Notes under the pieces: model-generated
The model's input: only the letters and a program-made list of their open reading frames with translations
The model's database searches: none
What the model was told of the DNA's origin: nothing
Translations under genes and position numbers: made by a program
Shown here: one piece after another, positions 11,313 through 59,338 of the stretch
Position numbering within the stretch: the stretch's first letter is position 1
Layout: every line of letters begins with the position of its first letter
Source of the DNA: Candidatus Komeilibacteria bacterium
GTDB taxonomy: Bacteria; Patescibacteriota; Patescibacteriia; UBA1558
NCBI GenBank assembly: GCA_048538275.1
Contig: JBLYPW010000002.1
Location: 2,111-66,110, forward strand
Reading direction: 5' to 3'
Length of the DNA: 64,000 nt

Positions 11313-11404
11313 AAAAACATGGTAAAAATCAAGGAAAAATTGAAAAATAAAGCCAACCCCCGGCGTTGGCAACCCCCGGCGTTGAATAAAATGTAATTAT
11401 TTAG
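11296..11404 (+). repeat. Duplicated copy of the 85-bp 5' leader cassette of the gene at 14926. It forms a 25-aa decoy ORF at 11327-11404 (MVKIKEKLKNKANPRRWQPPALNKM) and contains two tandem REP 15-mers at 11354-11385.
   Basis: Near-identical to 14900-14985: ggcgttgaataaaaaaacatggtaaaaatcaaggaaaaattgaaaaataaagccaacccccggcgttggcaacccccggcgttg. Confidence 0.7.
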
Positions 11405-14876: not shown

Positions 14877-14925
14877 CTACTAACAACCCCCGGCGTTGGC
14901 AACCCCCGGCGTTGAATAAAAAAAC

Positions 14926-26864: not shown

Positions 26865-26912
26865 CAACCCCCGGCGTTGCCAACGCCGGGGGTTGACAAC
26901 ACCCGGTGTTGG
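26865..26912. repeat. REP family 1 hairpin (caacccccggcgttg CCAACGCCGGGGGTTG inverted pair) plus the palindrome acaacacccggtgttgg, between paralog 4 and RAYT-A.
   Basis: Perfect inverted repeat of the 15-mer. Second palindrome at 26896-26912. Confidence 0.85.
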
Positions 26913-26962
26913 CGGTAAATTATAGAAAACAGGGTCTATCTAACGATTAACCCTGTATTTTT

Positions 26963-27538
26963 ATGCCTAAAATTGAGCGAAATATTGAACCCGGCTCTAT
27001 TCATCATGTCTATAATCGGTCGGTAGAGAAAAGAACCATATTTTTTATTGACAGAGATTATCAATGGTTTTTAGAAAAAATAGCGTTTTATAAAGTTAAA
27101 TATAAGGTAAAAATCTTAGCTTTTGCGCTTTTGCCTAACCATTGGCATTTGTTAGTGCAGGAACAGGAAGTAGTCCAACCCCCGGCGTTGGCAACGCCGG
27201 GGGTTGTTAGAATGATTGGAGATTTATGCAATGCCTATGTCAAGCGCTTCAACATAGCTCATGATCGCTCTGGACCCTTATTCCAGGGCAGATTTAAGTC
27301 AAAAGTGGTTGAAGATGAGCATTATTTGCAGAATCTTATTAATTATATCAATCTCAATCCAGTAAAACATAAAATAGTAAAGAATATTAAAGACTGGGAT
27401 TATACGTCACATTGGCACTACTTGGAGAAAGGGAAATTTGCTTTGGTTGATAAGAGTGAGTTTATAGATTTTGCGGTTTATAAGGCTGGCGTGGTTGATT
27501 ATTTACGAAAATTTGAGAATATTGAGGAAGAATTTTAA
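26963..27538 (+). CDS. IS200-like HuH tyrosine transposase, REP-associated (RAYT-A, 191 aa). It carries an in-frame REP hairpin insertion.
   Basis: N-terminus MPKIERNIEPGSIHHVYNR. HuH motif LLPNHWHLLV. C-terminal Y motif HYLQNLINYINLNPVKHKIV. REP caacccccggcgttggcaacgccgggggttg at 27177-27207 is translated as QPPALATPGVV. REP hairpins flank the gene at 26865-26895 and 27542-27572. Confidence 0.8.
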   Translation: MPKIERNIEPGSIHHVYNRSVEKRTIFFIDRDYQWFLEKIAFYKVKYKVKILAFALLPNHWHLLVQEQEVVQPPALATPGVVRMIGDLCNAYVKRFNIAHDRSGPLFQGRFKSKVVEDEHYLQNLINYINLNPVKHKIVKNIKDWDYTSHWHYLEKGKFALVDKSEFIDFAVYKAGVVDYLRKFENIEEEF

Positions 27539-27541
27539 ATC

Positions 27542-27572
27542 CAACCCCCGGCGTTGCCAACGCCGGGGGTTG
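27542..27572. repeat. REP family 1 hairpin immediately 3' of RAYT-A.
   Basis: caacccccggcgttgccaacgccgggggttg, a perfect inverted pair. Confidence 0.85.
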
Positions 27573-27673: not shown

Positions 27674-30600
27674 ATGTTGAATATAAAGGAAAAATTTAAA
27701 ATCAACCCCCGGCGTTGGCAACGCCGGGGGTTGGCAACACCCGGTGTTGGAATCCGCATCGCTTCTATTCTTTTTATTGCTATCATTATAGTAGCTGGTT
27801 TAATTTATATATTCAATAAACCTCAATCAGTAGAAGCAACTTGGTGGAACCCCACCTGGAGTTATAGACAAAGCATTGCTGTCACCAATGGCTCAGGCGG
27901 TACTTTAACAGATTTTCAAGTTGAGATATTGCAGAATGTTGATTTGAGTAGCCTTAATACAGCCGGCAAGCTGCAAGCAGATTTGGCTGATTTACGTTTT
28001 ACCGATATAAATCATAGAGTTCTGCCTTATTGGATAGAAGATAATACTATCTCTTCTGTAAATGCTTGGATTAAAATACCATCTATTCCTACAACCGGTA
28101 CTACTATTTATATGTATTATGGGAATTCATCGGCTAGTGATGCGCAGGATGGATTTAATACATTTTTGGCTTTTGATGATTTTGAAGACGGGGATATGAG
28201 TACATGGGAGCATATAGATGCTTGGGGAGATAATCTTGGCACATGGACAGAGTCTGGTGGCGTTATGCGTGCTGATTGTAATACTTTATGGTGCCATGAA
28301 ACTGCCTGGCAACATGTAAATTTTCAAACCGATAATGTTGCTTTAGCTGCCAAACATCGTTGTTTGGGTAATAATTCTGACGGTGAAGGTGGGATAGGTA
28401 TTTCTTTTACAGGCGGATGGGAAAATTATAGCACACAACAAACAATGCTTATCCGTAATGATAATCAAGATATCTGGGCAAGTGGAGGCACCCCTAGTAC
28501 CACCGTGTCGTTTACTAATACATGTAATACATGGTATAAAACCGAAATTAGAGATATTGCTGGCTCTAATGCAACTTTATGGGTGGATGATGTACAAAAA
28601 CATGCCACCACTAATAGTGTTACTACTGTAAACGGTAGGCCAGCTTTATCCCAGTATAAGGGTGATATTGAATACGACTGGGTATATTATAGAAAATTAG
28701 CATCCACTCAGCCTACAGCCGGCAGTCCAGCCACTGAAGAAAACGCCCCCGGCCCAGTGGGTTATTGGAATTTTAATGAGGGATTTGGCACAACAGCTTA
28801 TGATAGTACAGGTTATGGTAATGATGGGACAATTTCAGGGGCAACCTGGGTGCAGAATGGTAAAAGTGGTAGAGCTTTGAGTTTTAACGGGAGTAGTGAT
28901 TATATTATAACTAATAATGATATTGGAATATCAGGAACAGATGAAAGGACAGTTAGTTTATGGGTAAAAACTACATCAGCAAATGTTACTACAAATTCTA
29001 TTATTTTTGGAATGGGCACCGCTGCTGCTAATAATTTATTTGCCATGAGAACTGATTCTACTACTGATACTTGGAGATTTACAGATGCATCAGTTGCAAG
29101 AGAAACAAATGTCTCAACAACTGGTCAGTGGCAACACATAGTAACTATACTTGATTCTAGTCAACAATTAAGCGTTTATATTGATGGAATTATAACAGAT
29201 GTAAATAATATTGATTTGTCATCACAAGATACTACTAATGCTCCTTTCTATATTGGTTCAAGTGTTAATAATACTTTGTATTTTGATGGTCTCATAGACG
29301 AAGTACGCATCTACGACCGTGCCTTGTCAGCCAATGAAGTGAAACAGCTTTATAATCAAAATGCCGGCAGCTTTAATGTCGGGCAGTCTGGTATATCCAC
29401 TTCTTGCGCTGATCAATTGGCAAAAAATCCCGGCTCTAAGTCTGGTGTTTATACTATTGATCCTGGCTATGGAGTTGATCCTTTTGATGTTTATTGTGAT
29501 ATGGAGACTGACGGTGGGGGGTGGACTATGGTGGCATCAAATCATTCTAGTAGTACTTTAATACCCTCTGGCACTGGCAGAAATTCTGCTGAGTATGAGT
29601 TGGATAGGAATGGCAGTTATACTGCGTTAGGGACACCTTCTCCAAATACGGATTATATTATTGGCGCAGCTATTAATATATTGGAATGGGATGAAGCAAG
29701 GATTACTATGTTTGGGTTTGATTCAACTAGTTCATCGTATGTTTATCCCACAAATTTGGGAGATTATGCAGATGTTAAATGGGATGTTCCTGGTTCTGAT
29801 GCCGGACGGTTGGATCAGGCCGTTGCGGCAGCTAGTGTGTCCATATTTAGGAATAATAATTTTGCAAGTTTTCATCCAAGTGTTGCTTATTTCTATGTAG
29901 ATGGAGTACATCATGACTATATGCCAGATAGTGTATATGGCGCTAATGCAAATCAGGCAACAGTTGGAGGTGTTGGTAGAAGTGGCACGACTGTTACCGG
30001 TACATACTTTGGGCATGGTGTAACTGAGGGAAGTTTTGAGGGTTCATATGGCCCAGGAAACACGGCGAGTAAAAATGCCTCTGGGTATGTTACGTGGGTT
30101 AGAAGTAATACTGTGACTAGTTCATCTGGCGTTGCTCTAGACCTCCCCTTTGAAGCCGTATCCGGCTCTACGACTTATGATATTTCTGGTAATGAAAATA
30201 ATGGCACCATTACCGGCGCTACTCACAAAACTTCAGCCAATTGTAAGGTGGGGCGGTGTTTTGAGTTTGATGGGAGTGGTGATACTATAACCATAAGTGA
30301 TAGCACCAGTATTAATGCTATAGGGCAAGCTATGACGCTATCTGCCTGGGTTAAACCATCAGCATTTACAACTAGTTATAGGTCGGGGATTATCACAAGA
30401 CGTAATGGCAATGCAGGTATTGGATTTTATTTGGCCGGTGATTTAGATCCTGCTACATCAGGAACAATGGAGGCTATGATTGGGGGCGGGGCAAATGTTG
30501 CAGCTAATACAGCCTTACCACTAGATGAGTGGTCTTATACAACTATGGTCGCAAGCGGCGACAGTATTTCTTTTTATTTGAATGGAGTAGATGATGGTGG

Positions 30601-33462: not shown

Positions 33463-33600
33463 ATACAATACCCCGTCACTTCGACCGATGTCCAAACGCA
33501 GTGCGGACGAGTGGAGAAGTCTATAGAGCAGCCGTGTGATGAGAGACTTCTCCGCTCGCTTTCGCTCGGTCGAAGTGAAGAGGAGTATGGTTACTAGGGG
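33463..33600. repeat. MITE-like palindromic element, family 3, copy 2.
   Basis: ccccgtcacttcgaccgatgtccaaacgcagtgcggacgagtggagaagtctatagagcagccgtgtgatgagagacttctccgctcgctttcgctcggtcgaagtga is a long imperfect palindrome. Confidence 0.7.
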
Positions 33601-33806: not shown

Positions 33807-36800
33807 ATGCTAAAATTAGCCAAAAAATTTAAAATCAACCCCCAGCGTTGGCAACCCCCGGCGTTGGGAATATTAATAACAGCGATTATTATTGTATTTG
33901 CCGTGGTTTATTTTCTTCGAACACCCGGTGTTGTACAGGCAGAATGGTGGAATGAGGGCTGGCATTATAGAGATTCATATCCTATTACATACTCATCATC
34001 TGGTTCGGAATTAACAGAATATCAAGTCTTGGTGGAGGATCTGGATACTGCTACTCTAATAGCGGCTGGCAAGATGCAGTCTGATTGCGCGGATATTAGG
34101 TTTACAGATGTTAATAGTACAGTATTGAATTATTCTATTGTCGGCGCTACTTGTAATACCAGCAATACTAAAATATGGGTGAAGATGGAAAGCATCCCGG
34201 CAGGAGGAACAACTTTGTATTTATATTATGGCAATCCAAGTGCTAGTTTTTATCAAAGTGAAGAGAACACATTTAGTTATAGTACAGAAAAAACAGTGGG
34301 ATATGTTTTAAATGACGGGAGTACAGCTTTTGATTTAATTAGTTTGGCAGATGGTAATTCTATAACACACAATAGTACGACTTTAACTTTGAATAAAGGT
34401 GAAAGTAGCGCCCTTACTACCTCTACTTATTTACCAGTAACTGCCAAAAAATTATTTAATATGTCCACTGAGGAGTATGATACTATTGTACCGATTGGTT
34501 GGGCTGGCACGGAGTTTGTTTACCAGAATCGCAACGGGACTTATGAAACAGATTTTGTTATGGTCAGTCCGTGGGGTACGGCTACCGTACAAATATATAT
34601 TGATGGTGTGCAATGTGGTGCTGATAGAACAGTAACTAGCTCTGGTTTAAAGGTGACAGACTGTGGCGGCGCTGCTTCTGATGTGTTTAGGATAGTAAGT
34701 GATATACCTATCATTGTAAATAGGTCTAGCAGTGTAAATGATCCCCACCCTATGCATCCGGCTGATTTAGGACCTTGGTATGGTTGGGATTCAAGCGGCG
34801 ATTATATTGCCGCTGGCCCTAGTGGAGCCAGTTATCAGTGGATAGATAGTGGCATGAGCTCTGTTTCCTCAAGTAGTTTAGGTGCAAATGCGGGGACTAC
34901 TTTAGAAGCTGGTGGTGGCAGTTATTATTCTGGTGATACTATTAAGGTTTGGTCAACAGATTATGTTATGGGCGCGTCTACAGCTGGTGATGCTGACGGA
35001 GGGGATGCTACTACTTATTTGCCAAACTGGGAATTTGGCACCATAACCGGGTCGCCTTATGCAACGGATTTTGTGGCAGTACTATCTGATCAGGCAGTCA
35101 CTTGTACAACTTATAATAATAGCGGTGCCACCGTAAATACACAGCAATTATCTAGTACCAATACACAGGTTTATGAACTGGGTGGAACAAACTTTGGTAT
35201 AGGAAGTACTAGTGAATATATTAGTGGTGCTTGGTATGTAGAATGTGATGGGCCAGCTATGTTTGTATCACAAAATGTTGATGATGAACAAAATATGTGG
35301 TCTTGGCCTATGATGCGGCAGTTTTCTTATCCTACACCAGCGGTTGGTTCGGCTAGTGGTGAGGAAAAAGGAGAAGCACCAATATTGTATTGGAAGTTTG
35401 ATGAAGGTGTAGATAATTCTTGTTCTGGTGGCGGCGATGTGTGTGATTCCACAACCACCGGCGATCACAGGAACTTAGTGGGAGAACCAGATTGGCAGAG
35501 TGAAGACATGTGCGTGTCTGGTAAATGTTTATACTTTGACGGTACTAATGATTATATAGATTTAGGTTTTGGCAGCGGTCGTAATTTAGCTACCGATCCA
35601 TTATCAATAAGTATGTGGGTTAGACCAACTAGTTCTAGTGAAGATAATATGTACATAGCAACAGTGAATGGTACCAATCAGAGATTTTATTTTGCTATAC
35701 AAAATGGTTTATGGGATATGGGAATTCAAAATTCAACTTGGAGTCAAGGGGGTGCTGTTACTAGTGCAGACCTTAACGAATGGACGCATATAGCTATTGT
35801 CGCTAATGGTTCAGCAGTTAGGTTATATGTTAATGGTAATTATAGTTTTCAGAAAACATATACTTCGTATGCATTAGCTGGTAATATTGCCATTGCCAGC
35901 CAAGGCCCTGCAGGTGGTTATAAATGGCGAGGCTCCATAGATGATGTTAAAATTTATAATTATGCTCGTACAGACGATCAGATTAAAGCCGACTACTTAG
36001 CCGGCTTATCTGGCTCTTCGTCTGGTGTTGGCGCGTCTTTGGGCAGTAGGCAACAAGATCAGAGTGAAGGGCTGGTTGGTTATTGGCAGATGGATGATGC
36101 GGGTGTAGATGCTGAAGGTGAAACCATCAGTGATAGTTCCGGTAACGGCAACAGCGGCACGCTTTATGGTGATAATGCTACCGGTGATAATGGTACTGGT
36201 ATGGATTGTACCGTTACCGGTAAATATGGTACGGGTTGTAGTTTTGACGGGGTGGATGATTATGTTCTGAGTAGTTCCAATATCCCCGCTATGTCAAATT
36301 TTACGATATCAGTATGGCTACAGTGGGATGATTATGGCACTTCAAATACTCAATTTGTCACTGGAGGTGCTCAGGAGCAGTTTGAAATTCAAACCGGTGG
36401 AGGCAGCGGAACAAACGGTTTACGTTTTATACCCAATACTCACGACGCATCTACGTTAGATGTTGCTAATGCAATTCCAGATGCAAACTGGCATCATTAT
36501 GCAGTTGTATATACCAACAATGATCAAGTACTTGCATATAGAGACGGAGACGAAATTGGAAATAAGAGTCACTCGGTAAGTAGTAGTACTACAGCAAGTC
36601 AATTCAATATTGGAAGAAGAAGCAATAATAGTTATTTTTTTGATGGCAAAATAGATAATGTAAAAATATACAATACCGCCCGTACAGCCGAGCAGATAAT
36701 GAGGGATTATAAAACTGGACCATCGCCGGTGGCTTATTATGATTTTGAAGAACAATCCACTAGCATAGCCTATGACAGATCAGGCACTGGTGTTAATTTA

Positions 36801-39305: not shown

Positions 39306-39540
39306 TAACGAAGTTACTAATGGGGGTGAGGGATAATGGTCATAACAAATCAATATACAATACTCCGTCACTTCGACCGATGTCCAAACGCAGTGCGGAC
39401 GAGTGGAGAAGTCTATAGAGTAGCCGTGTGATGAGAGACTTCTCCACTCGCTTTCGCTCGATCGAAGTGACGGATGGGTTATGATGACTCGGTCGAAGTG
39501 ACGAGGAGTATGGTTACTAGGGGTGGTAGAATTAAAAAGC
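39306..39540. repeat. Palindrome family 2 copy (39306-39336) followed by MITE-like family 3 copy 3 (39345-39540).
   Basis: ccccgtaaagtaacgaagttactaatggggg, then ccgtcacttcgaccgatgtccaaacgcagtgcggacgagtggagaagtctatagagtagccgtgtgatgagagacttctccactcgctttcgctcgatcgaagtgac. Confidence 0.7.
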
Positions 39541-39587: not shown

Positions 39588-42500
39588 ATGCTAAAATTAG
39601 CCAAAAAATTTAAAATCAACCCCCGGCGTTGGCAACCCCCGGCGTTGATTATAATAACAGCGATTATTATTGTATTTGCTGTGGTTTATTTTCTCCGAAC
39701 ACCCGGTGTTGTACAGGCAGAATGGTGGAATGATGGGTGGCATTATCGGCAGACAATTTCTTTAACAAATTCAGGTGCGGCACAAACCAATACGCAGGTA
39801 AAAATACTTAGTGCAGAAGACTTAAGTTCTTTAGTAACAGCTGGCAAGCTGCAATCCGACCTTGACGACCTTAGGTTTACTGATGTTAATGGTAATATTC
39901 TTAAACATTGGATAGAAGATTCTACTAATTCAAGTGTAGATATTTGGGCCTTTATAGATTCTGTATCAGCATCTGGCGCTACTATCTATATGTATTATGG
40001 CAATCCTTCTGCTAGTGCTGATATAGTTGCTTTAGGCACGGCTGCATATCCGGGGATATCTTGTAAATCTGTATTACTGAGTGGTATTACTGCGGATGGT
40101 ATATATTATATTGATCCTACCGGACAAGAAACTACAGATAAGCTTCAAGCTTACTGTGATATGAACACTAGTAGTGGTGGCTGGACTTTGATTTTTCAAA
40201 GAAGAGGTGGTGAGAGTTATAATAATGCAGAATCTTGTGGCTCAAATCTTAATTCTTTTTTAAGAGCTAGCTGCGGGTCATTAACCTCTTTAAACTATGG
40301 AGATTCATATAGTATGGATATAGATTATGCGCCGATTGCTAATGAATACATGTTTAGACAATATGATTCCAACATGACTTTTGATAGTGGCGATGCTTTT
40401 ATTATTAATTCTGACAATTTATTATTTCCTAATATTACCACTAGTTTAAGTAATATTGCTGTGAACGCAATTTGTGATTATAATAATGCGAACTGCGATA
40501 CTACGGATACTTATTTTAAATATACTGGCGCCGGATATTTTAGCAGTACGTATTGTAATAATGGTTATACTACAGGGTATGGAGGTAATTATGGATATTG
40601 TCAGAATGGCATTTCAACAACTTACTACTCAAATGGACTTTTTGGTAATAGATTGGCGTATGATGAAACAAAACTATGGGCACACAATAATGGATCTGAT
40701 GAGTATATGGAAAGGGTTTTTGTGCGTGAATCTACTATTTCAACCACTGGCCACACAGTTACAGCAAGCACCCCCTCCTCCGAAGAAAAAGGTCCTGGCC
40801 CGATAGCCTATTGGAAATTTGATGAAGGTTATGGAACTACTGCCTATGATAGTAGTAGCAATAATAACAACGGTTCTATTTCTGGTGCTGCATGGCAGAC
40901 GGAAGATATGTGTGTGACTGGAAAATGTTTATTATATAACGGTACAGAATATGTAGGTTCTTTTAGTGATAATTTAAGTATGGGGTCAGAAGATTTTACA
41001 GTTTCAGCTTGGTTTAAAACAAATAGTGTTGTCACTTATGGTCAGTGGATTGTTGGTAATAAAGGTACTAGCACTAGTAATGATACAGGCTTTGAGTTAA
41101 TAATGGAGGGTGGTAGGCCTGGTATTTTTATTGCAGATGGTTCTAATAATATTAAATATCAGACTGCCAATTCATATGCGGATAATACTTGGCATTTTAT
41201 AACTGCTACGGTTAGTAGGGGTAGTAGCATTAAGCTTTATGTGGATGGCAAATTTATTTCAGAAAGGAGTGAAACGTTAGCGGGTAGTATTAATGTAAGT
41301 TATGGTTTATCTGTTGGTTTAAGACCTGGCGGAGGAAGTGAATTTAATGGTTTCATCGACGAAGTTAAAATTTACCCCTACGCCCGCACCGCTACTCAAA
41401 TCAAAGCCGATTATTTAGCGGGCCAAGTTGGCGTTGCTGAGGGCACAACCGCTGGTTTTGGTTCAGCAACCACTGGCAAGTCTTTATCAGATGGTCTGGT
41501 TGGTTATTGGAAGATGGATGAGGCAAGTTGGAATGGAACATCTGGAGAAGTTATAGACAGCTCTGGTAGTGGTAATAATGGTACGGCAGGAAACGAAGCA
41601 TCAATAACAGGTGGAAAGTTTGGTAATGGAGGTACTTTTGATGGAAGTAATGATTATATATCAATACCTGACAGCTCAGCTGATTTGAGTGGTGATTTTT
41701 CTGTTTCTATGTGGGTTCATCCCAATGACAATAGTCAAAATCCAAGATGGTTTGGTCTTGTGGATGGGTCAAATACTTTAGCAGTGGGGTACATGGATGA
41801 TGATACAGTCTATTTTAGATTTGGTGGTGATTCTATAATAACTGATTCAACTCTAACTTACGGAAACTGGTATTATGTGACTTTTGTTTATCAATCCAAC
41901 GCAAAGCAAATATATATAAACGGAGAAATAATGAATACAAGTTCAGGAGGCATTACTGGTGATTCAACATTATCTGCTATAGGTGCAGGTTATGCAACAA
42001 CAAGCTACACTGCTGATGGAGAAATTGACGAAGTAAGATTATATGAACGTGCCCTATCAGCCAAAGAAGTTCGTGATTTATACAATTGGGCGCCCGGGCC
42101 AGTTGCCTATTATAATTTTGATGAAAAAACAGGCACCACGGCTTATGATAAATCAGGCAATGGAAATAATGGCACTTTAACCAATATGGATGCAGCAACG
42201 GACTGGGTATCTGGTAAATATGGCAGTGCTTTAGATTTTGATGGAGTTAATGATTATGTCAACATACCCGATCCTGGAGCAAATTCTGTATTTGATGTTA
42301 CGCAAAATCTTACAATTTCCATGTGGATGAATAAAGCGGTGGATAGCGCCCACGGTAATTTGATAGAAAAGGGAGGTTCTTGGTGGATTCATCACGATTC
42401 TGCTTTTGAAGGGTATGCTGGCAATGGCATTCAGGGCGATGCTTTTCATGGTATTCCAGAATGGAATTATGATTTAGCTGAGAATACTTGGTATTATGTG

Positions 42501-44798: not shown

Positions 44799-44820
44799 TT
44801 ATTTAATAAGTAGGTGATGA

Positions 44821-44935
44821 ATCCTGTAAAGTAGCGAAGCTACTAACGGGATGAACCCTGTAAAGCAGTGAAGCTACTAACGGGGTGAACCCTGTAAAGT
44901 AGTGAAGCTACTAACAGGGTGAACCACGGCGCGGT
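44821..44935. repeat. Three tandem copies of a ~36-bp unit from palindrome family 2 (ccctgtaaagtagtgaagctactaacggggtgaa), immediately 3' of the minus-strand RAYT-B.
   Basis: Visible direct repeats. Each carries the inner hairpin gtagYgaagctac. Confidence 0.8.
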
Positions 44936-44941
44936 TTCTTT

Positions 44942-45619
44942 TTAAAATTTATTATTAATATTATTTCTATCTTGCGCCCAATTTGCAGGATTATTTTTGA
45001 TATATTCCCTGATTCTATCTAAATCATTATCATCTCTAATAATGTGTTCGTAATAATTGGATTGCCAGGCAAACCCCTGTAAACCAATATCATGAATGCG
45101 TTTGGTACATGCCGATTTGAATGAACGAACAATATTACCCAACGACGTTTTATTTAACATGGGATTGTATTTTCCGGTAATGCCACCCGCCATTTTGGCA
45201 CCCACCGCCATTTTGGCACCCACCGCCGTTTTGGCACCCACCGCCATTTTGGCACCCACCGCCATTTTGGTACCCACCGCCGTAGAGACGCGATTAATCG
45301 CGTCTCTACGGCGGTGGGTTGGTTCATTCAAATCGGCATTAATGACAAATATGACATGAATATGGTTAGGCATGACCATATATTCATCCAATGAAATATT
45401 ATTAAAATGTTTATTCATATTTGATAAATTTTGTTTTATTATCTCACCGTATTTATTTAATATCATTTGATCATGAATTACCTGACCAAAATACTCAATT
45501 CTATTTTTAGTACAAATGGTCACAAAATAATTTCCCGGTTGAGAATAATCATAATCTAATATCCTATTGGATGTGAGCCTATATTTTTCTTGGTATAATT
45601 TTGGGTTATATTGGGGCAT
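44942..45619 (-). CDS. RAYT-B (225 aa), an IS200-like/RAYT-type Y1 HuH transposase on the minus strand. An 18-bp microsatellite (AVGAKM x5) and a 44-bp perfect palindrome are inserted in frame.
   Basis: HuH motif MVMPNHIHVIF. C-terminal block GFAWQSNYYEHIIRDDNDLDRIREYIKNNPANW, which I recall as typical of TnpA_REP. Tandem ggcacccaccgccatttt units at ~45183-45290. Palindrome ccaccgccgtagagacgcgattaatcgcgtctctacggcggtgg at ~45282-45328. Confidence 0.8.
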   Translation of the reverse strand: MPQYNPKLYQEKYRLTSNRILDYDYSQPGNYFVTICTKNRIEYFGQVIHDQMILNKYGEIIKQNLSNMNKHFNNISLDEYMVMPNHIHVIFVINADLNEPTHRRRDAINRVSTAVGTKMAVGAKMAVGAKTAVGAKMAVGAKMAGGITGKYNPMLNKTSLGNIVRSFKSACTKRIHDIGLQGFAWQSNYYEHIIRDDNDLDRIREYIKNNPANWAQDRNNINNKF

Positions 45620-45855
45620 AATAAAAAAGGGTTAGTATTGAAACCGACCCTGTTTACCCCGTTTAACGTGGTTTGCCACATTTGATGAGGTTTGTCTATT
45701 GTGATTTATAGGTTTAGTTTATACTTTCAGTTATTTTTGTCAAAGCTTTTACTCGCCGGGGGTTGGAACATTATCCCCAGTTGAAGGTTTTATAAAATTG
45801 TTGTATAATACAGCTACAAATTGAGGGCTCAATTTATTATTAAAAAATTGTTAAT

Positions 45856-46589: not shown

Positions 46590-46860
46590 GGGGTTCCATC
46601 CGCTCACCATAACCCCTCTGTCACTTCGACTGAGTCATCATAACCACTCTGTCACTTTGACTAAGTCATCATAACTCATCTATCCCTTCGACCGAGTCAT
46701 CACACCCCCTCCGTCATCTCGACCGAGTCATCATACCCCCTCCGTCACTTCGACCGAGCGAAAGCGAGCGGAGAAGTCTCTCATCACGCGGCTACACTAT
46801 AGACTTCTCCGCTCGTCCGCACTGCGTTTGGACATCGGTCGAAGTGACGGGTAAGTATAT
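46590..46860. repeat. MITE-like family 3 copy 4, preceded by about five tandem ~30-bp units (ctctgtcacttcgacYgagtcatcataacc).
   Basis: Tandem units at 46598-46760. The palindromic core cgagcggagaagtctctcatcacgcggctacactatagacttctccgctcgtccgcactgcgtttggacatcggtcgaagtgac is at 46760-46853. Confidence 0.7.
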
Positions 46861-54875: not shown

Positions 54876-57497
54876 ATGAATAAACAGCCAGCACAAACTA
54901 TAAATTTGGAAGGTTATGATATTTATTGGGGCAAAAGCTATTCTACTCTATCTGTTTTGGTAGATCGTATTCATCATGGTATCCGGCTGGTATGGCTAGG
55001 AATATTATGGTTATTGGTAGCGGCCGGTTGGGTGGTCTTTATTTGGCATATATATAAACTGATTGACGCGCATTATGACTTTTTCTTAGTCAGTAGCTGG
55101 CAGGGCGATCATTTGCATTGGTGGTGGTTTGGTATTTTAGTGATGTTATATATTTTTTATTATCATCAAAAAGATAAAGGTGGTCGTTATACGGTTCTTC
55201 AGCCGGGAGATATTGATAAACATAAAAAGCGAGAGTCTTTGGATATTAGTTTTGCTTTTAGTCGGGCTAGTCATAAGGCAATGGAGCGGGCTTATGAAAT
55301 CGCTCACCAAGATAGTGGCAGCGCTATTCAATCTTTACATATTTTTGCCTCTTTATTACATGATGAGCGGGTTGGTTTGATTTTGCATCGTCTTGGTGTT
55401 GCTAGTGTAGATATACAGCAAACCACAGATCGTCTCATAAAAAATGACGGACTGATTTCGCCGACCAGTAGTTTGAATTTGGATGACAATGCTAGCCATG
55501 TAGTTTTATCCGCTTATTTAACCGCTTATCAACGTGGTGATAGCCAAGTAGAGATTCCTGATTTATTGTCAGCGGTGGTAGAAAGGGATGTTAAAGTCAA
55601 GGAGATTCTATTTGCTTATAAATTAACTGAAGATCAAATTAATAATGTCATAGCTTGGCTGCGTATTCAGCAGGCTTTGGCGGATCGTTATCGTCGCTAT
55701 CAGTATAAAGCCGGGTTTCGCCCCAAAGGAACAATGGACAAGGCTATGACCGCGGTAGCCACCCCCACCCTAGATCAATATAGTGATGATTTTACTGCTT
55801 TGGCTAAGGCTGGTTATTTTGGCCTGTGCGTGGCACGCGAAAAAGAATTTAATGAGCTATATAATATTTTAGAAGGTGGTGGAGCGCCATTATTGGTCGG
55901 TAATCCTGGCGTGGGGGTGGATAGTATAATTGAAGGTTTGGCTAATCGGATGGCGGCAGATGAAGTGCCGGCAGTTTTACAAGACAAACGCTTAGTGTCT
56001 TTGCATATATCAAAATTAGTAGCCGGCGCCACTACGGCCGGTGAATTGGAAGAGCGGGTAATGCGCCTGGTGTTTGAAATTAGTCGGGCTGGCAATATTG
56101 CATTATATATCAATAATTTACATAATTTGGTGGGCATTGGTGCGGCTGGTGCCAGTAATGTTGATTTGGCTGATGTACTGACGGAAAGTTTGATGAAACG
56201 CGGTATGTTGGTGCTAGGATCTACGACACCAAATGATTTCCGTAAATATATAGAGCATAGTGCTTTTAATAATTATTTTGATAAATTAGAAATAAATGAA
56301 CCTGATATAAATCAAGCCATTCAAATGCTAGAGGCCAATATTGGCAGTATAGAACATAAACAGGAAGTATTTTTTTCTTATGAAGCTTTAGATCGGGCGG
56401 TGGTATTGTCACAGCGTTATATTCCGGATCATTTTTTGCCCAGCAAAGCGATAAATATAGTAGAAGAAGTAGCCGCTCGTGTACGCAGTCAGCGAGGTAA
56501 GGATCAGTTGGTTAGCGGTCAGGATGTAGCCGAGCTTATTTCTAGTAAGACAGACATACCGCTGACTGCAGTGACCAGTGATGAATCGGCCAAATTATTA
56601 AATCTAGAGGAATTAATTCATCAAAGTATCGTCAATCAAAGTGAAGCCGTGAAGGTAGTATCTGCTGCCTTGCGGCGAGCGCGGGCTGAACTGCGCGATA
56701 CTAAGCGACCGATTGCCAGTTTCCTTTTTTTGGGTCCGACGGGCGTTGGTAAATCAGAGTTAGCCAAGACATTGGCAGCGGTTTATTTTGGCGGTAGCGA
56801 ACGTATGATCCGTTTGGATATGTCAGAGTATCAAGAAAAAAATAGTTTACAGCGCATGTTAGGTACTCCCGGAAGCAATGAGGGCGGTATTTTAACCGAA
56901 GCAGTGCGTGAATCTCCTTATTCTATTTTATTATTAGATGAAATAGAAAAAGCCCATCCTGATATTTTAAATATTTTTTTACAGGTAATGGAGGATGGAA
57001 GATTGACGGATGTGACTGGCCGGACGGTTGATTTTACCAATCTAATTATTATTGCTACTTCCAATGCGGGCACCAATTATATTCAAGATCAGACTAAGGC
57101 CGGTGCTACGGCAGAACAAATAAAAAATGCCTTATTAGAATCAGAATTACGTCCTTATTTTCGTCCTGAGTTTTTGAATCGTTTTGATAATATTGTTGTG
57201 TTCAAGCCATTAACCCAGGATCACATTGAACAGATCGCTGTTTTATTATTAAACGGTCAAAAAAAGCGCTTGGCTACCAAGGGAATATTTTTGGAAGCTA
57301 CACCGGCGGCAATTAAAGAGTTGGCGATTGCTGGCTATGATCCAAAATTTGGCGCTCGTCCTTTGCGTCGCGTTATTCAAGAGCAGGTGGAGAACGCCTT
57401 GGCCAACTTTTTATTAAAAGGCAAAATAGATCGTCGCGATAAGGTGATATTAGAAGCTGGTGGACAGATTCGCGTGGAAAAAGCCCAAAAATTGTAA
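54876..57497 (+). CDS. Clp/Hsp100-family AAA+ ATPase (ClpA/B/C-like, 873 aa). It has N-terminal hydrophobic segments and a degenerate first Walker A.
   Basis: The first ~130 aa contain two hydrophobic helices (LVWLGILWLLVAAGWVVFIW, WWWFGILVMLYIFYY). Clp-N-like AIQSLHIFASLLHDERVGLILHRLGV. D1 Walker A reads GNPGVGVDSIIEGLANR instead of GxPGVGKTAIVEGLA, so the lysine is missing. D2 is intact: GPTGVGKSELAKTLA, LLDEIEKAHPDILNIFLQVMEDGRLTD, IIIATSNAG. Confidence 0.75.
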   Translation: MNKQPAQTINLEGYDIYWGKSYSTLSVLVDRIHHGIRLVWLGILWLLVAAGWVVFIWHIYKLIDAHYDFFLVSSWQGDHLHWWWFGILVMLYIFYYHQKDKGGRYTVLQPGDIDKHKKRESLDISFAFSRASHKAMERAYEIAHQDSGSAIQSLHIFASLLHDERVGLILHRLGVASVDIQQTTDRLIKNDGLISPTSSLNLDDNASHVVLSAYLTAYQRGDSQVEIPDLLSAVVERDVKVKEILFAYKLTEDQINNVIAWLRIQQALADRYRRYQYKAGFRPKGTMDKAMTAVATPTLDQYSDDFTALAKAGYFGLCVAREKEFNELYNILEGGGAPLLVGNPGVGVDSIIEGLANRMAADEVPAVLQDKRLVSLHISKLVAGATTAGELEERVMRLVFEISRAGNIALYINNLHNLVGIGAAGASNVDLADVLTESLMKRGMLVLGSTTPNDFRKYIEHSAFNNYFDKLEINEPDINQAIQMLEANIGSIEHKQEVFFSYEALDRAVVLSQRYIPDHFLPSKAINIVEEVAARVRSQRGKDQLVSGQDVAELISSKTDIPLTAVTSDESAKLLNLEELIHQSIVNQSEAVKVVSAALRRARAELRDTKRPIASFLFLGPTGVGKSELAKTLAAVYFGGSERMIRLDMSEYQEKNSLQRMLGTPGSNEGGILTEAVRESPYSILLLDEIEKAHPDILNIFLQVMEDGRLTDVTGRTVDFTNLIIIATSNAGTNYIQDQTKAGATAEQIKNALLESELRPYFRPEFLNRFDNIVVFKPLTQDHIEQIAVLLLNGQKKRLATKGIFLEATPAAIKELAIAGYDPKFGARPLRRVIQEQVENALANFLLKGKIDRRDKVILEAGGQIRVEKAQKL

Positions 57498-57501
57498 TTC
57501 A

Positions 57502-57537
57502 ATTCAACCTTCAAGGTTTAGACCTTGAAGGTTGAAT
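57502..57537. repeat. Palindrome family 4 (caaccttcaaggtttagaccttgaaggttg), 5' flank of RAYT-C.
   Basis: Near-perfect inverted repeat. A second copy lies at 58011-58048. Confidence 0.85.
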
Positions 57538-57606
57538 TTGACCAATACGCAGCGGTGTGTTAAGTTCCAAATAACAGGGTTGATTTAATTATTGACCCGT
57601 TTTTTT

Positions 57607-58023
57607 ATGCCTAATGTAGCACGTAATTTTTTTCCTGGTAGCATTCACCATGTTTATAATAGGGCTAATGCAGGATTGATTATTTTTAGAAATGACAGGG
57701 ATTATGCTTATTTTTTGCATAGAATTAGTGTTTATAGGAAAAGAACCAGAGTTCATATCATCACTCAAGCCGTGTTACCAAACCATTGGCATTTTCTTTT
57801 GCAAGAGCCTAATGATGTGATAGGCAATAATAAATTACCCGCTATTTCAAAATTTGTGTCCTTATTATCTAATTCTTATACTAGATATTTTCAGTTAAAA
57901 TATGGTTATTTGGGGAGAATATTCCAGGGGCAGTTTAAGTCTAAGTGGGTTGAAGATGATGATTATTATGCTTATTTAATTGATTATATAACTCATAATA
58001 AGTTGCATCACCGCCAACCTTGA
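57607..58023 (+). CDS. RAYT-C, an IS200-like HuH transposase (about 138 aa from the ATG at 57607; the ORF track begins at the TTG at 57592). The 3' palindrome possibly truncates its C-terminus.
   Basis: MPNVARNFFPGSIHHVYNRA parallels the RAYT-A N-terminus. HuH motif VLPNHWHFLLQE. C-terminal YAYLIDYITHN. The stop is created inside the family 4 palindrome. Confidence 0.75.
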   Translation: MPNVARNFFPGSIHHVYNRANAGLIIFRNDRDYAYFLHRISVYRKRTRVHIITQAVLPNHWHFLLQEPNDVIGNNKLPAISKFVSLLSNSYTRYFQLKYGYLGRIFQGQFKSKWVEDDDYYAYLIDYITHNKLHHRQP

Positions 58024-58048
58024 AGGTCTAGACCTTCAAGGTTGGCGG
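58011..58048. repeat. Palindrome family 4 copy (ccgccaaccttgaaggtctagaccttcaaggttggcgg), 3' flank of RAYT-C.
   Basis: Perfect 38-bp palindrome overlapping the last codons of RAYT-C. Confidence 0.85.
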
Positions 58049-58129: not shown

Positions 58130-59338
58130 ATGAGCTTTTTAGGTGGGAGGATTCGCCGTCTTCGTTTTAAGCATGAAGAAAAGATGGTTTATTGTTTAGT
58201 CAGAGCTGATATTTGGCAGAGTGACGCGGCTGTGATTCGGCAACCAGCTGCGCTAGCGGGAAAGATTTTAGTCGGCACTTGGCAGCGCTTGGATAATATT
58301 TATGATAATTTAGCCAGCGCTAAAAAACATGCATTTAGTCGTCAAGACAGGCGCTATATGCTACTTGATAATATCTGGGCTGCTCATCGTCAAGCTAATT
58401 ATATTTTGATTGGCATTGGCAAAAATAAATTTCAGGGCGAAAGAAAAGTCTTGCGCGAGTTAAGACGTCTCACCAGAGTTTATCACAACCGCACGGCAAA
58501 TTTGAGTAAAGAAAATGTCGCGGCCATATTCAGTGATTATCAAAAAGATATTGATAGAGTACGTAAAGAACTCATCAATAGCAAAGCTTTGCTCAAGCAA
58601 GACGCCTTACAAAAATGGGAAAGTATTGCTGGCGGTCAAGACATTCTTGGTCGGCTAAATAAACAGGCAACGGGCGCTAAGTTATGGAAGGCGGGAGATG
58701 ATTTGTCAGCGCGCTTGGCGGATTTAAGAGCTGTTTACAGCAAAGCCGTTGTTCATGCTGCTACCTTTGCGGGTCAAATTGATCTGGTAGTAGAGCTGCT
58801 TTGGGCCGTTGAAAACTGGGCTAAAATAATTCTTTTGGATGTGCAGAATCTTCGCTCTGAAGGTATTCATACAGCCTTAAGAACAGAGCTTGTTTGGCAT
58901 CAGCAGCAATTGCGAGAAATTGATTTTTCTCCCTATGTAGTCAGTAATGTTTATTGGGGTGAATTATTAACCACTGCAAATTCATTATTAAGCAATGAGT
59001 TGGTGCTAAGCAATATTAAGCGTTTGTGGCGCCTGTGTCGTATCAAGCGGATTCAATTGATAGTGGAAGAGATGATCGGTTTAATCAGCTATCATGATGC
59101 TGGTGATGCATATACTCAGTGGAGCGCTGAGTTGTCTAGAAAAAATCAGTTGATCAGCCGAATGTTTCGTGCTTATCGCGCATTGGCTTATGATCGTAAT
59201 TTGACCAGATATAAAAGGCTGCAATTGCGCTGGGATAATTTATCGGTTGTATTGGCTGATAATAAAGGTCATCGTTCGCACGCATTTTGGCAAGAGCACA
59301 AAGCCCAATTAAAGGAATTTTCGCAAAAATTGAATTAA
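58130..59338 (+). CDS. Hypothetical protein (402 aa), predicted helical or coiled-coil.
   Basis: Long ORF with an AGGAGG-like aaggaggaag RBS 6 nt upstream. No motif recognised. Confidence 0.55.
   Translation: MSFLGGRIRRLRFKHEEKMVYCLVRADIWQSDAAVIRQPAALAGKILVGTWQRLDNIYDNLASAKKHAFSRQDRRYMLLDNIWAAHRQANYILIGIGKNKFQGERKVLRELRRLTRVYHNRTANLSKENVAAIFSDYQKDIDRVRKELINSKALLKQDALQKWESIAGGQDILGRLNKQATGAKLWKAGDDLSARLADLRAVYSKAVVHAATFAGQIDLVVELLWAVENWAKIILLDVQNLRSEGIHTALRTELVWHQQQLREIDFSPYVVSNVYWGELLTTANSLLSNELVLSNIKRLWRLCRIKRIQLIVEEMIGLISYHDAGDAYTQWSAELSRKNQLISRMFRAYRALAYDRNLTRYKRLQLRWDNLSVVLADNKGHRSHAFWQEHKAQLKEFSQKLN

What the first reader, a model, noticed from the sequence alone, without database searches (positions are those of the whole stretch)
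57502..58048. A minimal REP-RAYT-REP module with its own palindrome family
RAYT-C is exactly bracketed by two copies of caaccttcaaggtYtagaccttgaaggttg (57502-57537 and 58011-58048). These are unrelated in sequence to REP family 1. The 3' copy supplies the gene's stop codon and may have truncated the C-terminal catalytic-Tyr helix, since the protein ends YITHNKLHHRQP. At least three palindrome families sit beside different RAYT paralogs in 31 kb. This suggests several co-resident REP/RAYT lineages.
Basis: seen in the sequence. Interest (0 to 1): 0.55.

Follow-up and report, generated by a model that had tools for sequence, protein, structure and literature searches.

The report
Truncated RAYT gene between cognate hairpins
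A small REP-associated tyrosine transposase (RAYT) gene in a Candidatus Komeilibacteria genome sits between two copies of its own perfect DNA hairpin, and the downstream hairpin supplies a stop codon that removes the protein's conserved tail; this is an ordinary "REPtron" in an unusual host, with a few instructive twists.

Summary
Two perfect palindromes (57501-57538 and 58011-58048) bracket a 138-aa HUH/Y1 ORF (57607-58023), and the stop codon lies inside the second palindrome.

The ORF is a RAYT-like nuclease. Its best fold match is E. coli TnpA_REP (4ER8). The HUH motif, the catalytic Tyr127 and the metal ligands N131 and H135 are all intact, so the Tyr helix is not truncated. What is missing is the roughly 50-aa tail that follows it, including a (D/E)W-x-Y/F-S/T motif kept by nearly all homologs checked.

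A second strain carries the same truncated ORF.

Family 4 is not wholly unrelated to family 1. Both are inverted pairs of 15-nt units with CAACC/GGTTG feet.

The core ACCTTSAAGGT recurs as a dispersed palindrome in Bacteroidota, Parabeggiatoa, Chloroflexota and other groups. There it flanks distantly related RAYT genes and is inserted in frame within them. In one of these genes it sits at the same codon position as here.

The closest Patescibacteria homologs each carry a private ACCT-N3-AGGT unit upstream, inside the gene and at the stop codon.

No other family 4 copy exists in the 64-kb window. I could not reach the rest of the genome, so the copy number is unresolved.

Verdict: a new member of a known kind (REPtron), of modest interest.

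The parts
57501..57538 (.). Palindrome 1 (family 4). It has 17-bp arms and a 4-nt loop, with core 57505-57534. It consists of two inverted 15-nt units, CAACCTTCAAGGTTt and aGACCTTGAAGGTTG, and starts 4 nt after the clpC-like stop codon.
57577..57606 (+). Leader hairpin (GGGTTGATTTAATTATTGACCC) followed by a T-run, directly before the ATG. It is terminator-like. The same AACAGGGT-N15-AACCC(T)GT + T-run + ATGCC leader precedes RAYT-A and RAYT-B.
57607..58023 (+). RAYT-C CDS, 138 aa. It encodes an HUH/Y1 nuclease core running from strand beta1 to helix alphaD, and it lacks the C-terminal extension.
57784..57792 (+). HUH motif codons H60-W61-H62.
57985..58011 (+). Catalytic Tyr motif Y127-I-T-H-N131-K-L-H-H135. 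It aligns to Y115, N119 and H123 of E. coli TnpA_REP.
58011..58048 (.). Palindrome 2 (family 4). It has 19-bp arms with no gap, and its units are in the opposite C/G arrangement to palindrome 1. It begins at Tyr+9 and encodes R-Q-P-stop (TGA at 58021-58023).
54876..57497 (+). Upstream conserved neighbour, a ClpC/ClpB-like AAA+ ATPase. The interval from clpC to the class II aaRS gene (glycyl-tRNA-synthetase-like) is a variable spot among Komeilibacteria and lacks a RAYT in two other species.
58130..59338 (+). Downstream 402-aa orphan ORF with no homolog other than itself. It is the second occupant of the variable interval. The 81 nt between palindrome 2 and its ATG hold no remnant of the RAYT tail.

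Best explanation
This is a REPtron: a RAYT-type single-strand DNA nuclease gene (HUH + Tyr) flanked by the hairpins it presumably recognises. It lies in a Candidatus Komeilibacteria (Patescibacteria) chromosome, in a variable interval between clpC and a class II aminoacyl-tRNA synthetase gene.

The hairpins are inverted pairs of a 15-nt mini-palindrome of the form (C)AACC-N5-GGTT(G). Each RAYT of this lineage keeps its own version of this unit upstream of the gene, often in frame inside it, and at or over its stop codon.

In RAYT-C the downstream pair sits inside the coding frame at Tyr+9. A relative tolerates an in-frame copy of the same palindrome at that position. Here the G-type unit reads CCT-TGA in frame, so translation stops and the conserved tail of about 50 aa is missing.

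I infer that the tail DNA was lost by deletion between a hairpin inside the CDS and the usual 3'-flanking hairpin, leaving a single copy.

The catalytic core is intact, and the same short ORF persists in a second strain. The product could therefore still bind and cut hairpin DNA. However, it lacks a motif that almost every homolog keeps, and its hairpin has not spread locally. The module is most likely a weakly active or inactive, non-proliferating copy.

Shown: anatomy, homology, the truncation, and the equivalent layouts in relatives. Inferred: hairpin recognition by this protein, the deletion route, and the activity state.
For: Identity as a RAYT-like nuclease:
- It matches NCBIfam REP_Tyr_transpos at profile positions 4-134 of 146.
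- It matches Pfam Y1_Tnp to profile position 120 of 121.
- The family profile hits only 4ER8 TnpA_REP among solved structures.
- The AF2 model has pLDDT 86.7, and its best Foldseek match is 4er8_A with TM 0.72.
- The organism is identified from a 100% identical protein annotated 'MAG: transposase [Candidatus Komeilibacteria bacterium]', accession MFW0837866.1.

Truncation:
- Most close homologs are 177-202 aa and continue ...KHKIVKxxxDWxYTSHHNY....
- Of 165 homologs with an identifiable Tyr motif, only one (123 aa, not checked for completeness) has a shorter tail after the Tyr. Most of the short-tailed proteins examined keep a (D/E)W-x-(Y/F/W)-(S/T)-type motif.
- The core is not decayed. RAYT-C matches 47 of 67 clade-conserved positions, the same as full-length RAYT-A.

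Cognate-hairpin layout in relatives:
- L122/P0002, unit ACCTCGAAGGT: a single unit and an inverted pair upstream, an in-frame unit after HUH, and a unit supplying the stop codon.
- L124/P0003, unit ACCTCGCAGGT: the same layout.
- L157/P0021, unit GACCTCGGAGGTC: the 3' unit overlaps the W-T-S motif and the protein ends at 150 aa.
- RAYT-A in this window: family 1 pairs on both flanks and in frame at 27176-27206.
- The identical core ACCTTSAAGGT flanks, and in five of the six loci also lies in frame inside, RAYT genes sharing only 24-31% identity (L065, L113, L097, L063, L100, L143). In L143 a pair is in frame at Tyr+9.

Other support:
- A second strain (L156) has the same 138-aa ORF, the same stop codon and an identical palindrome 1.
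- Two other Komeilibacteria species have the same clpC...aaRS synteny without a RAYT.
- In-gene REP insertions, REPs overlapping the 3' end of the gene, and REPtrons without a genomic REP family are all described (PMC6006769; PMC3733652).
Against: - No biochemical or genome-wide evidence links this protein to these hairpins. The link rests on adjacency and on analogy with relatives.
- Scores fall below both curated cut-offs: Pfam 19.4 against 23, and NCBIfam 36.4 against 80.
- The hairpins lack the canonical GT[AG]G foot of REPs.
- Only two copies are known, so 'family' status is unproven.
- The proposed REP-REP deletion left no trace that can be checked.
- In E. coli, removing the last 13 residues raises activity (PMC3479197), so truncation need not mean inactivation.
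- The dN/dS of about 0.3-0.4 between strains hints at constraint, but it rests on 9 changed codons and is not significant.
Confidence: 0.65

Rival explanations
1. The tail-less RAYT-C is a fully active, perhaps deregulated, nuclease. Loss of the C-terminal extension removes an autoinhibitory element, as in E. coli TnpA_REP delta152, and the short form is maintained by selection.
For: - All catalytic and metal-binding residues are present.
- The core model is confident.
- Core conservation equals that of the full-length paralog RAYT-A.
- The same ORF is kept in two strains, with 4 synonymous against 5 non-synonymous codon changes.
- The E. coli tail is autoinhibitory, and its removal increases cleavage (PMC3479197).
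Against: - The cut here is far deeper than delta152. It corresponds to about E. coli residue 126 and also removes the DW-x-F/Y-S/T segment. All but one of 165 homologs have a tail long enough to carry that segment, and most short-tailed ones examined do carry it.
- No extra family 4 copies lie within 64 kb, although family 1 has 25 units in the same window.
- The dN/dS estimate is not significant.
- The AF2 model of a full-length relative gives no usable picture of the tail, with pLDDT below 50.
Confidence: 0.25
2. The two palindromes are host-function hairpins, acting as transcription terminators or mRNA 3'-end stabilisers for clpC and for the small ORF. They have no functional tie to the nuclease, and their similarity comes from a local duplication.
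For: - Palindrome 1 sits 4 nt after the clpC stop codon.
- At the same place one related species has a small hairpin plus T-run, and another has a 44-nt palindrome plus T-run.
- Only two copies are known.
Against: - Neither palindrome is followed by a T-run, and the terminator scan does not call either one.
- The same core flanks, and in most cases is inserted in frame in, RAYT genes in unrelated phyla.
- Closest relatives show the same gene-hairpin layout with co-varying unit sequences.
- A local duplication would not explain the compensatory C/G swap together with the different outer arms, AATT/AATT against CCGC/GCGG.
Confidence: 0.07
3. The 548-bp unit is an autonomous IS200/IS605-like cassette, with a left-end hairpin, a transposase gene and a right-end hairpin. 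It moves or is exchanged as a whole.
For: - It lies in a variable interval that is absent from two sister species.
- All 11 differences between the two strains fall between the two palindromes, against 0 of 500 nt in the adjoining clpC (Fisher p = 1.6e-4). This would fit replacement of the cassette.
Against: - There is a single copy in the window, and the paralogs are only about 44% identical or barely alignable.
- The Tyr motif is of the class 2 type (Y-x3-N), not the Y-x3-Q of IS200 transposases.
- Orthologs in other Patescibacteria keep a fixed position next to recG, which points to vertical inheritance.
- The two ends are the same palindrome, not distinct left and right ends.
- There is no tnpB.
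Confidence: 0.05

Closest known systems
REPtron: RAYT / TnpA_REP gene with flanking REPs (E. coli TnpA_REP, PDB 4ER8; Nunvar 2010, Ton-Hoang 2012, Messing 2012)
   Same: - HUH + Tyr single-domain nuclease fold (TM 0.72 to 4ER8).
- Tyr, Asn and His spacing identical to the E. coli enzyme.
- Gene bracketed by palindromes that form hairpins as single strands.
- Apparently single copy.
   Different: - No GT[AG]G foot on the hairpins.
- The hairpins are perfect and built from two 15-nt mini-palindromes.
- Scores are below the NCBIfam and Pfam cut-offs.
- The C-terminal extension is absent.
- No dispersed copies have been shown.
- The host is a Patescibacteria (CPR) genome.
Subclass 2.4 TnpA_REP (= RAYT group 4), known for in-frame REP insertions inside the gene (Quentin et al. 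2018, PMC6006769)
   Same: - Cognate palindromes occur inside RAYT reading frames without breaking them. This is seen here in RAYT-A, RAYT-B, P0002, P0003, P0021 and the Bacteroidota-type genes.
- RAYT-B of this window fits the 2.4 motifs (NHIH, WQ, YIKNNP).
   Different: - RAYT-C has the motifs NHWH, FQ and YITHNK, which do not fit 2.4.
- It has no insertion between HUH and Tyr.
- Its in-CDS palindrome lies after the Tyr and ends the frame instead of being read through.
Subclass 2.1 / RAYT group 1, including TIRYT 'TIRtrons' (Di Nocera 2013, PMC3733652; Quentin 2018)
   Same: - Motifs come closest: NH[YF]H-like HUH, FQ instead of WQ, Y[IV]xLNP-like Tyr motif, and an S/T-S motif in the extension of full-length relatives.
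- The gene is flanked by private inverted repeats that may not form a genomic family.
   Different: - Subclass 2.1 was reported to have no REP-like hairpins nearby, and TIRs with a GGGGWSAS consensus. Here the flanks are true hairpins with ACCT-N3-AGGT cores.
- There is no C-terminal HTH domain.
- Subclass membership was not tested with the authors' profiles.
IS200/IS605 insertion sequences
   Same: Y1 HUH enzyme gene between subterminal hairpins; single-strand DNA chemistry is expected.
   Different: - Class 2 Tyr motif.
- No multiple identical copies.
- Identical rather than distinct end hairpins.
- No tnpB.
- Orthologs are syntenic rather than mobile.

Membership tests
RAYT / TnpA_REP (class 2 Y1 HUH nucleases) | HUH motif on a central beta strand | tested here: met
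   H60-W61-H62 is invariant in the alignment and lies on predicted strand 60-66.
RAYT / TnpA_REP (class 2 Y1 HUH nucleases) | Catalytic Tyr in a Y-x3-N-P motif on the last core helix | tested here: inconclusive
   Y127 and N131 are present and align to Y115 and N119 of 4ER8, and H135 aligns to H123. The Pro is replaced by Lys (YITHNK). Several full-length relatives also lack the Pro.
RAYT / TnpA_REP (class 2 Y1 HUH nucleases) | Fold like TnpA_REP | tested here: met
   Foldseek top hit is 4er8_A with E 3.4e-07 and TM 0.72. The family profile hits only 4ER8 in the PDB.
RAYT / TnpA_REP (class 2 Y1 HUH nucleases) | Reaches curated family score (NCBIfam NF047646 REP_Tyr_transpos; Pfam PF01797) | tested here: not met
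   36.4 bits against a cut-off of 80, and 19.4 bits against 23. Paralogs A and B pass the Pfam cut-off but not the NCBIfam one.
RAYT / TnpA_REP (class 2 Y1 HUH nucleases) | C-terminal extension after the Tyr helix with a conserved W-x-aromatic-S/T motif | tested here: not met
   The protein ends 11 aa after the Tyr. The median tail of 165 homologs is 69 aa, and only one (123 aa, possibly a fragment) is shorter.
RAYT / TnpA_REP (class 2 Y1 HUH nucleases) | Gene flanked by cognate palindromes | tested here: met
   The palindromes lie 68 nt upstream of the ATG and over the stop codon.
RAYT / TnpA_REP (class 2 Y1 HUH nucleases) | Sequence-specific binding and cleavage of the hairpin as single-stranded DNA | not testable with these tools
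   This needs purified protein and oligonucleotides.
REP / REPIN repeat family | Short palindrome (about 20-40 nt) forming a stable hairpin | tested here: met
   38-nt perfect palindromes; -18 to -22 kcal/mol; z about -8 to -9.
REP / REPIN repeat family | Many dispersed copies in the same genome | tested here: inconclusive
   There are no further copies or single units in the 64-kb window at up to 3 mismatches. The same core is a dispersed multi-copy repeat in other genomes, for example in many Parabeggiatoa contigs.
REP / REPIN repeat family | Conserved 5' GT[AG]G tetranucleotide at the foot of the hairpin | tested here: not met
   The feet are CAAC...GTTG, extended by AATT/AATT or CCGC/GCGG.
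Subclass 2.4 TnpA_REP (in-gene REP) | Motifs NH[IFV]H, WQ, YIxNNP, with a REP inserted in frame between HUH and Tyr | tested here: not met
   RAYT-C has NHWH, FQ and YITHNK, and no palindrome between HUH and Tyr. RAYT-B of the window does fit these motifs.
IS200/IS605 | Y-x3-Q Tyr motif, several near-identical copies, distinct left and right end hairpins | tested here: not met
   The Tyr motif is of the Y-x3-N type. There is one copy in the window, and the paralogs are only about 44% identical or barely alignable. The same palindrome sits at both ends.

The most novel reading that the evidence does not exclude
RAYT-C and its relatives may represent a broad RAYT lineage whose motifs are nearest to subclass 2.1 / group 1, which was reported to lack REPs. 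This lineage spans Patescibacteria, Bacteroidota and other phyla. Its cognate element would be a 13-15-nt ACCT-N3-AGGT mini-hairpin kept in register at three or four fixed places: upstream, in frame after HUH or after the Tyr helix, and over the stop codon. Within each gene all copies carry the same N3, while orthologs differ. That would be a footprint of enzyme-driven concerted rewriting of its own hairpins. The identical 11-nt core ACCTTSAAGGT shared across phyla would then be a REP family far older or more mobile than any described. RAYT-C would be a natural tail-less variant produced by this process.
Probability: 0.2. Interest if true: 0.6.

Novelty: new member of a known kind. Interest (0 to 1): 0.33.

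Why it matters
REP/RAYT systems have been studied almost entirely in Proteobacteria, with surveys reaching Cyanobacteria and Bacteroidetes. This locus shows the same gene-plus-hairpin unit in a small Patescibacteria genome, next to two further RAYT paralogs that each have a different palindrome.

It also gives a clear natural example of a cognate hairpin shortening its own nuclease gene, at a site where a relative reads through the same hairpin in frame.

If the co-variation of the upstream, in-gene and stop-codon units holds up across many genomes, it would give a sequence-only handle on RAYT specificity: which bases of the hairpin change together with the protein. The shared ACCTTSAAGGT core would then be a candidate for a cross-phylum REP family.

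None of this changes the basic picture of REPtrons.

Tried and rejected
1. Reaching the rest of the source genome failed. Exact-protein look-ups for four window proteins found nothing on record. The metagenome scan returned 31 loci, none of the Komeilibacteria type. No genome-wide count of family 4 was therefore possible.
2. I considered the terminator reading of the palindromes. There is no T-run after either one, and neither is called by the scan. I kept it only as a minor rival.
3. I looked for promoters after each palindrome (TTGACC-N17-TAAGTT and TAGTTT, seen by eye). The consensus scan does not call them, so I make no claim.
4. Rfam gave only sub-threshold chance hits, to snoRNA and miRNA models.
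5. I checked read-through of the TGA. The following frame (GRSRPSRLAASLTSLF*) does not resemble the conserved tail, and the 81 nt before the next gene cannot hold it. Rejected.
6. I tested whether the RAYT-C core is a decaying pseudogene. It matches 47 of 67 conserved positions, the same as full-length RAYT-A. Not supported.
7. I modelled a full-length relative to see what the tail does. The tail has pLDDT below 50, so the model is uninformative.
8. A literature search for the core sequence found only unrelated primer hits.
9. The downstream 402-aa ORF has no homologs, so it gives no empty-site comparison at strain level. The species-level comparison was made through clpC.
Full report
**1. Observation**

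- Palindrome 1 has 17-bp arms (57501-57517 and 57522-57538) with a 4-nt loop. Palindrome 2 has 19-bp arms (58011-58029 and 58030-58048) with no gap. Both are 100% complementary.
- The shared 30-nt core CAACCTT[C/G]AAGGT-NTAG-ACCTT[G/C]AAGGTTG occurs only at these two places. No match appeared in 100 dinucleotide shuffles.
- Relaxing the search to single 15-nt units with up to 3 mismatches adds nothing elsewhere in the 64 kb.
- As single-stranded DNA, both strands of both copies fold at -18 to -22 kcal/mol, with z between -7.8 and -9.1.
- The copies differ by one compensatory C/G exchange in the stem, one loop base, and their outer arms: AATT/AATT against CCGC/GCGG.
- Between them lies a 138-aa ORF (ATG 57607, TGA 58021-58023). 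Its last three codons and its stop codon are encoded by palindrome 2.

**2. What the ORF is**

- Pfam gives Y1_Tnp just below threshold (19.4 against 23 bits), matched to profile position 120 of 121.
- NCBIfam gives REP_Tyr_transpos at positions 4-134 of 146, at 36 bits against a cut-off of 80.
- A profile of the ORF with 13 homologs hits a single solved structure, E. coli TnpA_REP (4ER8).
- The AlphaFold model (pLDDT 86.7) shows the full core from beta1 to alphaD. Its best PDB match is 4er8_A with TM 0.72, ahead of the IS200/IS605 transposases.
- H60-W-H62, Y127, N131 and H135 are all present. The Tyr/Asn/His spacing equals that of Y115, N119 and H123, which form the E. coli active site with the HUH histidines (PMC3479197).
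- An identical protein is recorded as 'MAG: transposase [Candidatus Komeilibacteria bacterium]', MFW0837866.1, on a 200,731-bp contig.
- The window has the look of a Patescibacteria chromosome, with nearly all genes on one strand and strong GC skew.

**3. Truncation**

- Most of the 24 closest homologs are 177-202 aa. They continue after the Tyr helix with ...KHKIVKxxxDWxYTSHHNY... and about 40 further residues.
- I examined 165 homologs with an identifiable Tyr motif, drawn from the word-index search and the exhaustive search (9,792 cluster representatives at E up to 0.001). The tail after the Tyr has a median of 69 aa.
- Only one protein, 123 aa long and not checked for completeness, is shorter than RAYT-C's 11 aa. 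The next shortest tails (21-31 aa) mostly keep a (D/E)W-x-(Y/F/W)-(S/T)-type motif.
- That motif is also present in E. coli TnpA_REP as SDWPFST.
- So the Tyr helix is intact and the extension after it is gone.
- The core itself is not decayed. RAYT-C matches 47 of 67 positions that are at least 90% conserved in 19 full-length relatives, exactly the same as the full-length paralog RAYT-A.
- The 81 nt between palindrome 2 and the next gene hold no remnant of the tail.

**4. A second strain**

- A Logan contig (SRR32315888, 1,043 bp) carries the same locus and ends inside palindrome 2.
- The ORF is again 138 aa with the same stop codon, and 96% identical in protein sequence.
- All 11 nucleotide differences lie between the two palindromes (57554-57951).
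- The 500 nt of clpC and palindrome 1 are identical. Fisher p = 1.6e-4 for all sites and 0.03 for synonymous sites only.
- Within the ORF there are 4 synonymous and 5 non-synonymous codon changes, giving dN/dS of roughly 0.3-0.4. That is too few changes to be significant.

**5. What the palindromes are**

They are not simple long hairpins. Each is an inverted pair of 15-nt units, each nearly self-complementary, of the form CAACCTT-S-AAGGTTG.

Family 1 of the same window has the same build (CAACCCCCGGCGTTG / CAACGCCGGGGGTTG, and also CAACACCCGGTGTTG). It has 25 units in the window, and a pair of units lies in frame inside RAYT-A at 27176-27206. 'Unrelated to family 1' is therefore too strong: the cores differ, but the feet and the architecture are shared.

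The closest homologs for which I could fetch DNA show a consistent layout with a private unit each:
- P0002 (another Komeilibacteria) uses ACCTCGAAGGT. It has one unit and one inverted pair upstream, one unit in frame after the HUH motif (LTSKV), and one unit that supplies the stop codon (IDLEG*).
- P0003 uses ACCTCGCAGGT in the same layout.
- P0021 uses GACCTCGGAGGTC. Its last unit overlaps the W-T-S motif and the protein ends at 150 aa.

In all three, no further copies occur within 7-20 kb. P0003, P0009 and P0018 sit in the same place, between a type IV secretion-like cluster and recG. This argues for vertical inheritance.

**6. The same core in other phyla**

My own estimate of the chance expectation is only a few hits.
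- The hits are in Bacteroidota, Candidatus Parabeggiatoa (many contigs), Chloroflexota, Ignavibacteria, Cloacimonadota and others. The consensus is rACCTTCAAGGTTTTnnAAAACCTTGAAGGTy.
- Five of the 120 loci, and one of 31 metagenome loci, contain a RAYT-like ORF. In every one the palindrome abuts the gene.
- In L097 and L100 it lies on both flanks. In L065, L113, L063 and L100 a full pair is also read in frame after the HUH motif (NLQGFQNLEGL).
- In L143 there are four pairs, one of them in frame beginning at Tyr+9. That is the same codon position at which palindrome 2 begins in RAYT-C.
- These proteins share only 24-31% identity with RAYT-C.
- In L143 the first unit reads CCT-TCA (Pro-Ser). In RAYT-C the unit in that frame is the G-type and reads CCT-TGA.

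**7. Mechanism proposed**

Shown:
- The gene is a RAYT-type nuclease gene.
- Relatives carry their cognate unit upstream, in frame, and at the stop codon.
- RAYT-C has a pair at a site that tolerates one elsewhere, and here it terminates the frame.
- The tail DNA is absent.

Inferred:
- The protein recognises these hairpins as single-stranded DNA, as TnpA_REP does.
- The tail was lost by deletion between a pair inside the CDS and the usual 3' pair.
- The module is now weakly active or inactive. I infer this because it lacks a motif that nearly all homologs retain, and because its hairpin has not spread in 64 kb where family 1 has 25 units.

The counter-view is that a tail-less enzyme is more active, as for E. 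coli delta152. This cannot be excluded and is listed as the main rival.

**8. Context**

The gene order IleRS - RecO - ... - TGT - ClpC - [variable] - class II aaRS - peptidase M16 - AI-2E transporter is conserved in two other Komeilibacteria species whose ClpC is 62-63% identical. The variable interval there holds unrelated ORFs and no RAYT. In one of them a 44-nt palindrome with a GTAGAGACG core follows the clpC stop codon, and in the other a small terminator does.

**9. Comparison with the literature**

- In-frame REP insertions inside tnpA_REP genes, between HUH and Tyr, are described as a hallmark of subclass 2.4 / RAYT group 4 (PMC6006769).
- REPs overlapping the 5' or 3' end of the gene, and REPtrons in species without a REP family, are described in PMC3733652.
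- RAYT-B of this window fits the 2.4 motifs.
- RAYT-A, RAYT-C and the Bacteroidota-type proteins come nearest by motif to subclass 2.1 (NH[YF]H, FQ, Y[IV]xLNP, S/T-S), which that survey reported as lacking REP-like structures. I could not test subclass membership with the authors' profiles.
- The hairpins lack the GT[AG]G foot of canonical REPs.

**10. Verdict**

The locus is a REPtron with a hairpin-truncated RAYT in a Patescibacteria genome. It is a new member of a known kind. Two modestly interesting side results deserve a systematic follow-up: co-varying private mini-hairpins at fixed positions, and a core shared across phyla.

Noticed in passing
window 11293-11384, 14884-15007, 21970-22000, 26865-26911, 27176-27206, 27542-27572, 27703-27749, 33836-33866, 39617-39647: The family 1 unit CAACCCCCGGCGTTG, repeated with a 16-nt period, occurs 25 times in the window against 0.9 expected. 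Pairs lie in frame inside RAYT-A. Pairs also lie exactly 29 nt after the ATG of three giant ORFs that start at 27674, 33807 and 39588. This suggests either that the unit is translated in these N-termini or that the true start codons lie downstream.
   Followed up: partly
window 44942-45619 (- strand); 45187-45281; 45272-45319; 44816-44925: RAYT-B fits subclass 2.4 motifs (NHIH, WQ, YIKNNP). Its CDS contains a perfect 48-nt palindrome with a GTAGAGACG core and 5.3 copies of an 18-nt tandem repeat encoding (AVGAKM)n. Three 34-nt tandem units containing the GTAG hairpin GTAGYGAAGCTAC lie just past its 3' end.
   Followed up: partly
window 57572-57612, 26928-26968, 45614-45660 (- strand): All three RAYT paralogs share a leader, AACAGGGT-N15-AACCC(T)GT followed by a T-run and ATGCC. 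This holds even though RAYT-B shows almost no alignable similarity to the other two. It is a terminator-like hairpin directly before the start codon, and there is no Shine-Dalgarno sequence. It may insulate or attenuate expression. Relatives L124 and L157 have a hairpin plus T-run in the same place with a different sequence.
   Followed up: partly
window 57554-57951 compared with L156 (Logan SRR32315888): All 11 differences between the two strains fall between the two palindromes. None falls in the 500 nt of clpC or in palindrome 1. Either the segment between the hairpins evolves faster or it has been exchanged as a block.
   Followed up: partly
L001-L120 (genome contigs) and L125-L155 (metagenome contigs): The palindrome rACCTTCAAGGTTTTnnAAAACCTTGAAGGTy is a dispersed repeat in very different phyla: many Bacteroidota, Candidatus Parabeggiatoa with dozens of copies, Chloroflexota, Ignavibacteria and Cloacimonadota. 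The core sequence was not found in the searchable literature.
   Followed up: partly
L159 8650-8693; L158 8630-8660: In another Komeilibacteria species a 44-nt perfect palindrome (ATAGCCTTGTAGAGACGTTATG / reverse complement) plus a T-run follows the clpC stop codon. Its outer arms resemble the small terminator found at the same place in a third species. It looks as if a GTAG-type REP had inserted into the loop of that terminator.
   Followed up: no
L124, and the gene tables: RAYT orthologs P0003, P0009 and P0018 (46-55% identical to RAYT-C) all lie between a PrgI/TraC/TraG-like cluster and a convergent recG. This conserved synteny across genomes fits domesticated, vertically inherited RAYTs.
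   Followed up: no
window 33508-33558, 39400-39450, 46765-46815; 46604-46758: A further palindrome family, CGAGYGGAGAAGTCT-N21-AGACTTCTCCRCTCG, follows two of the giant ORFs and also occurs at 46765. There it is preceded by five 31-nt tandem repeats.
   Followed up: no
L159 9818-10072 and 11152-11406: The variable clpC-aaRS interval of one sister species holds an 84-aa fragment with a ClpB_D2-small domain and an 84-aa GIY-YIG protein. The interval therefore collects mobile or duplicated material.
   Followed up: no
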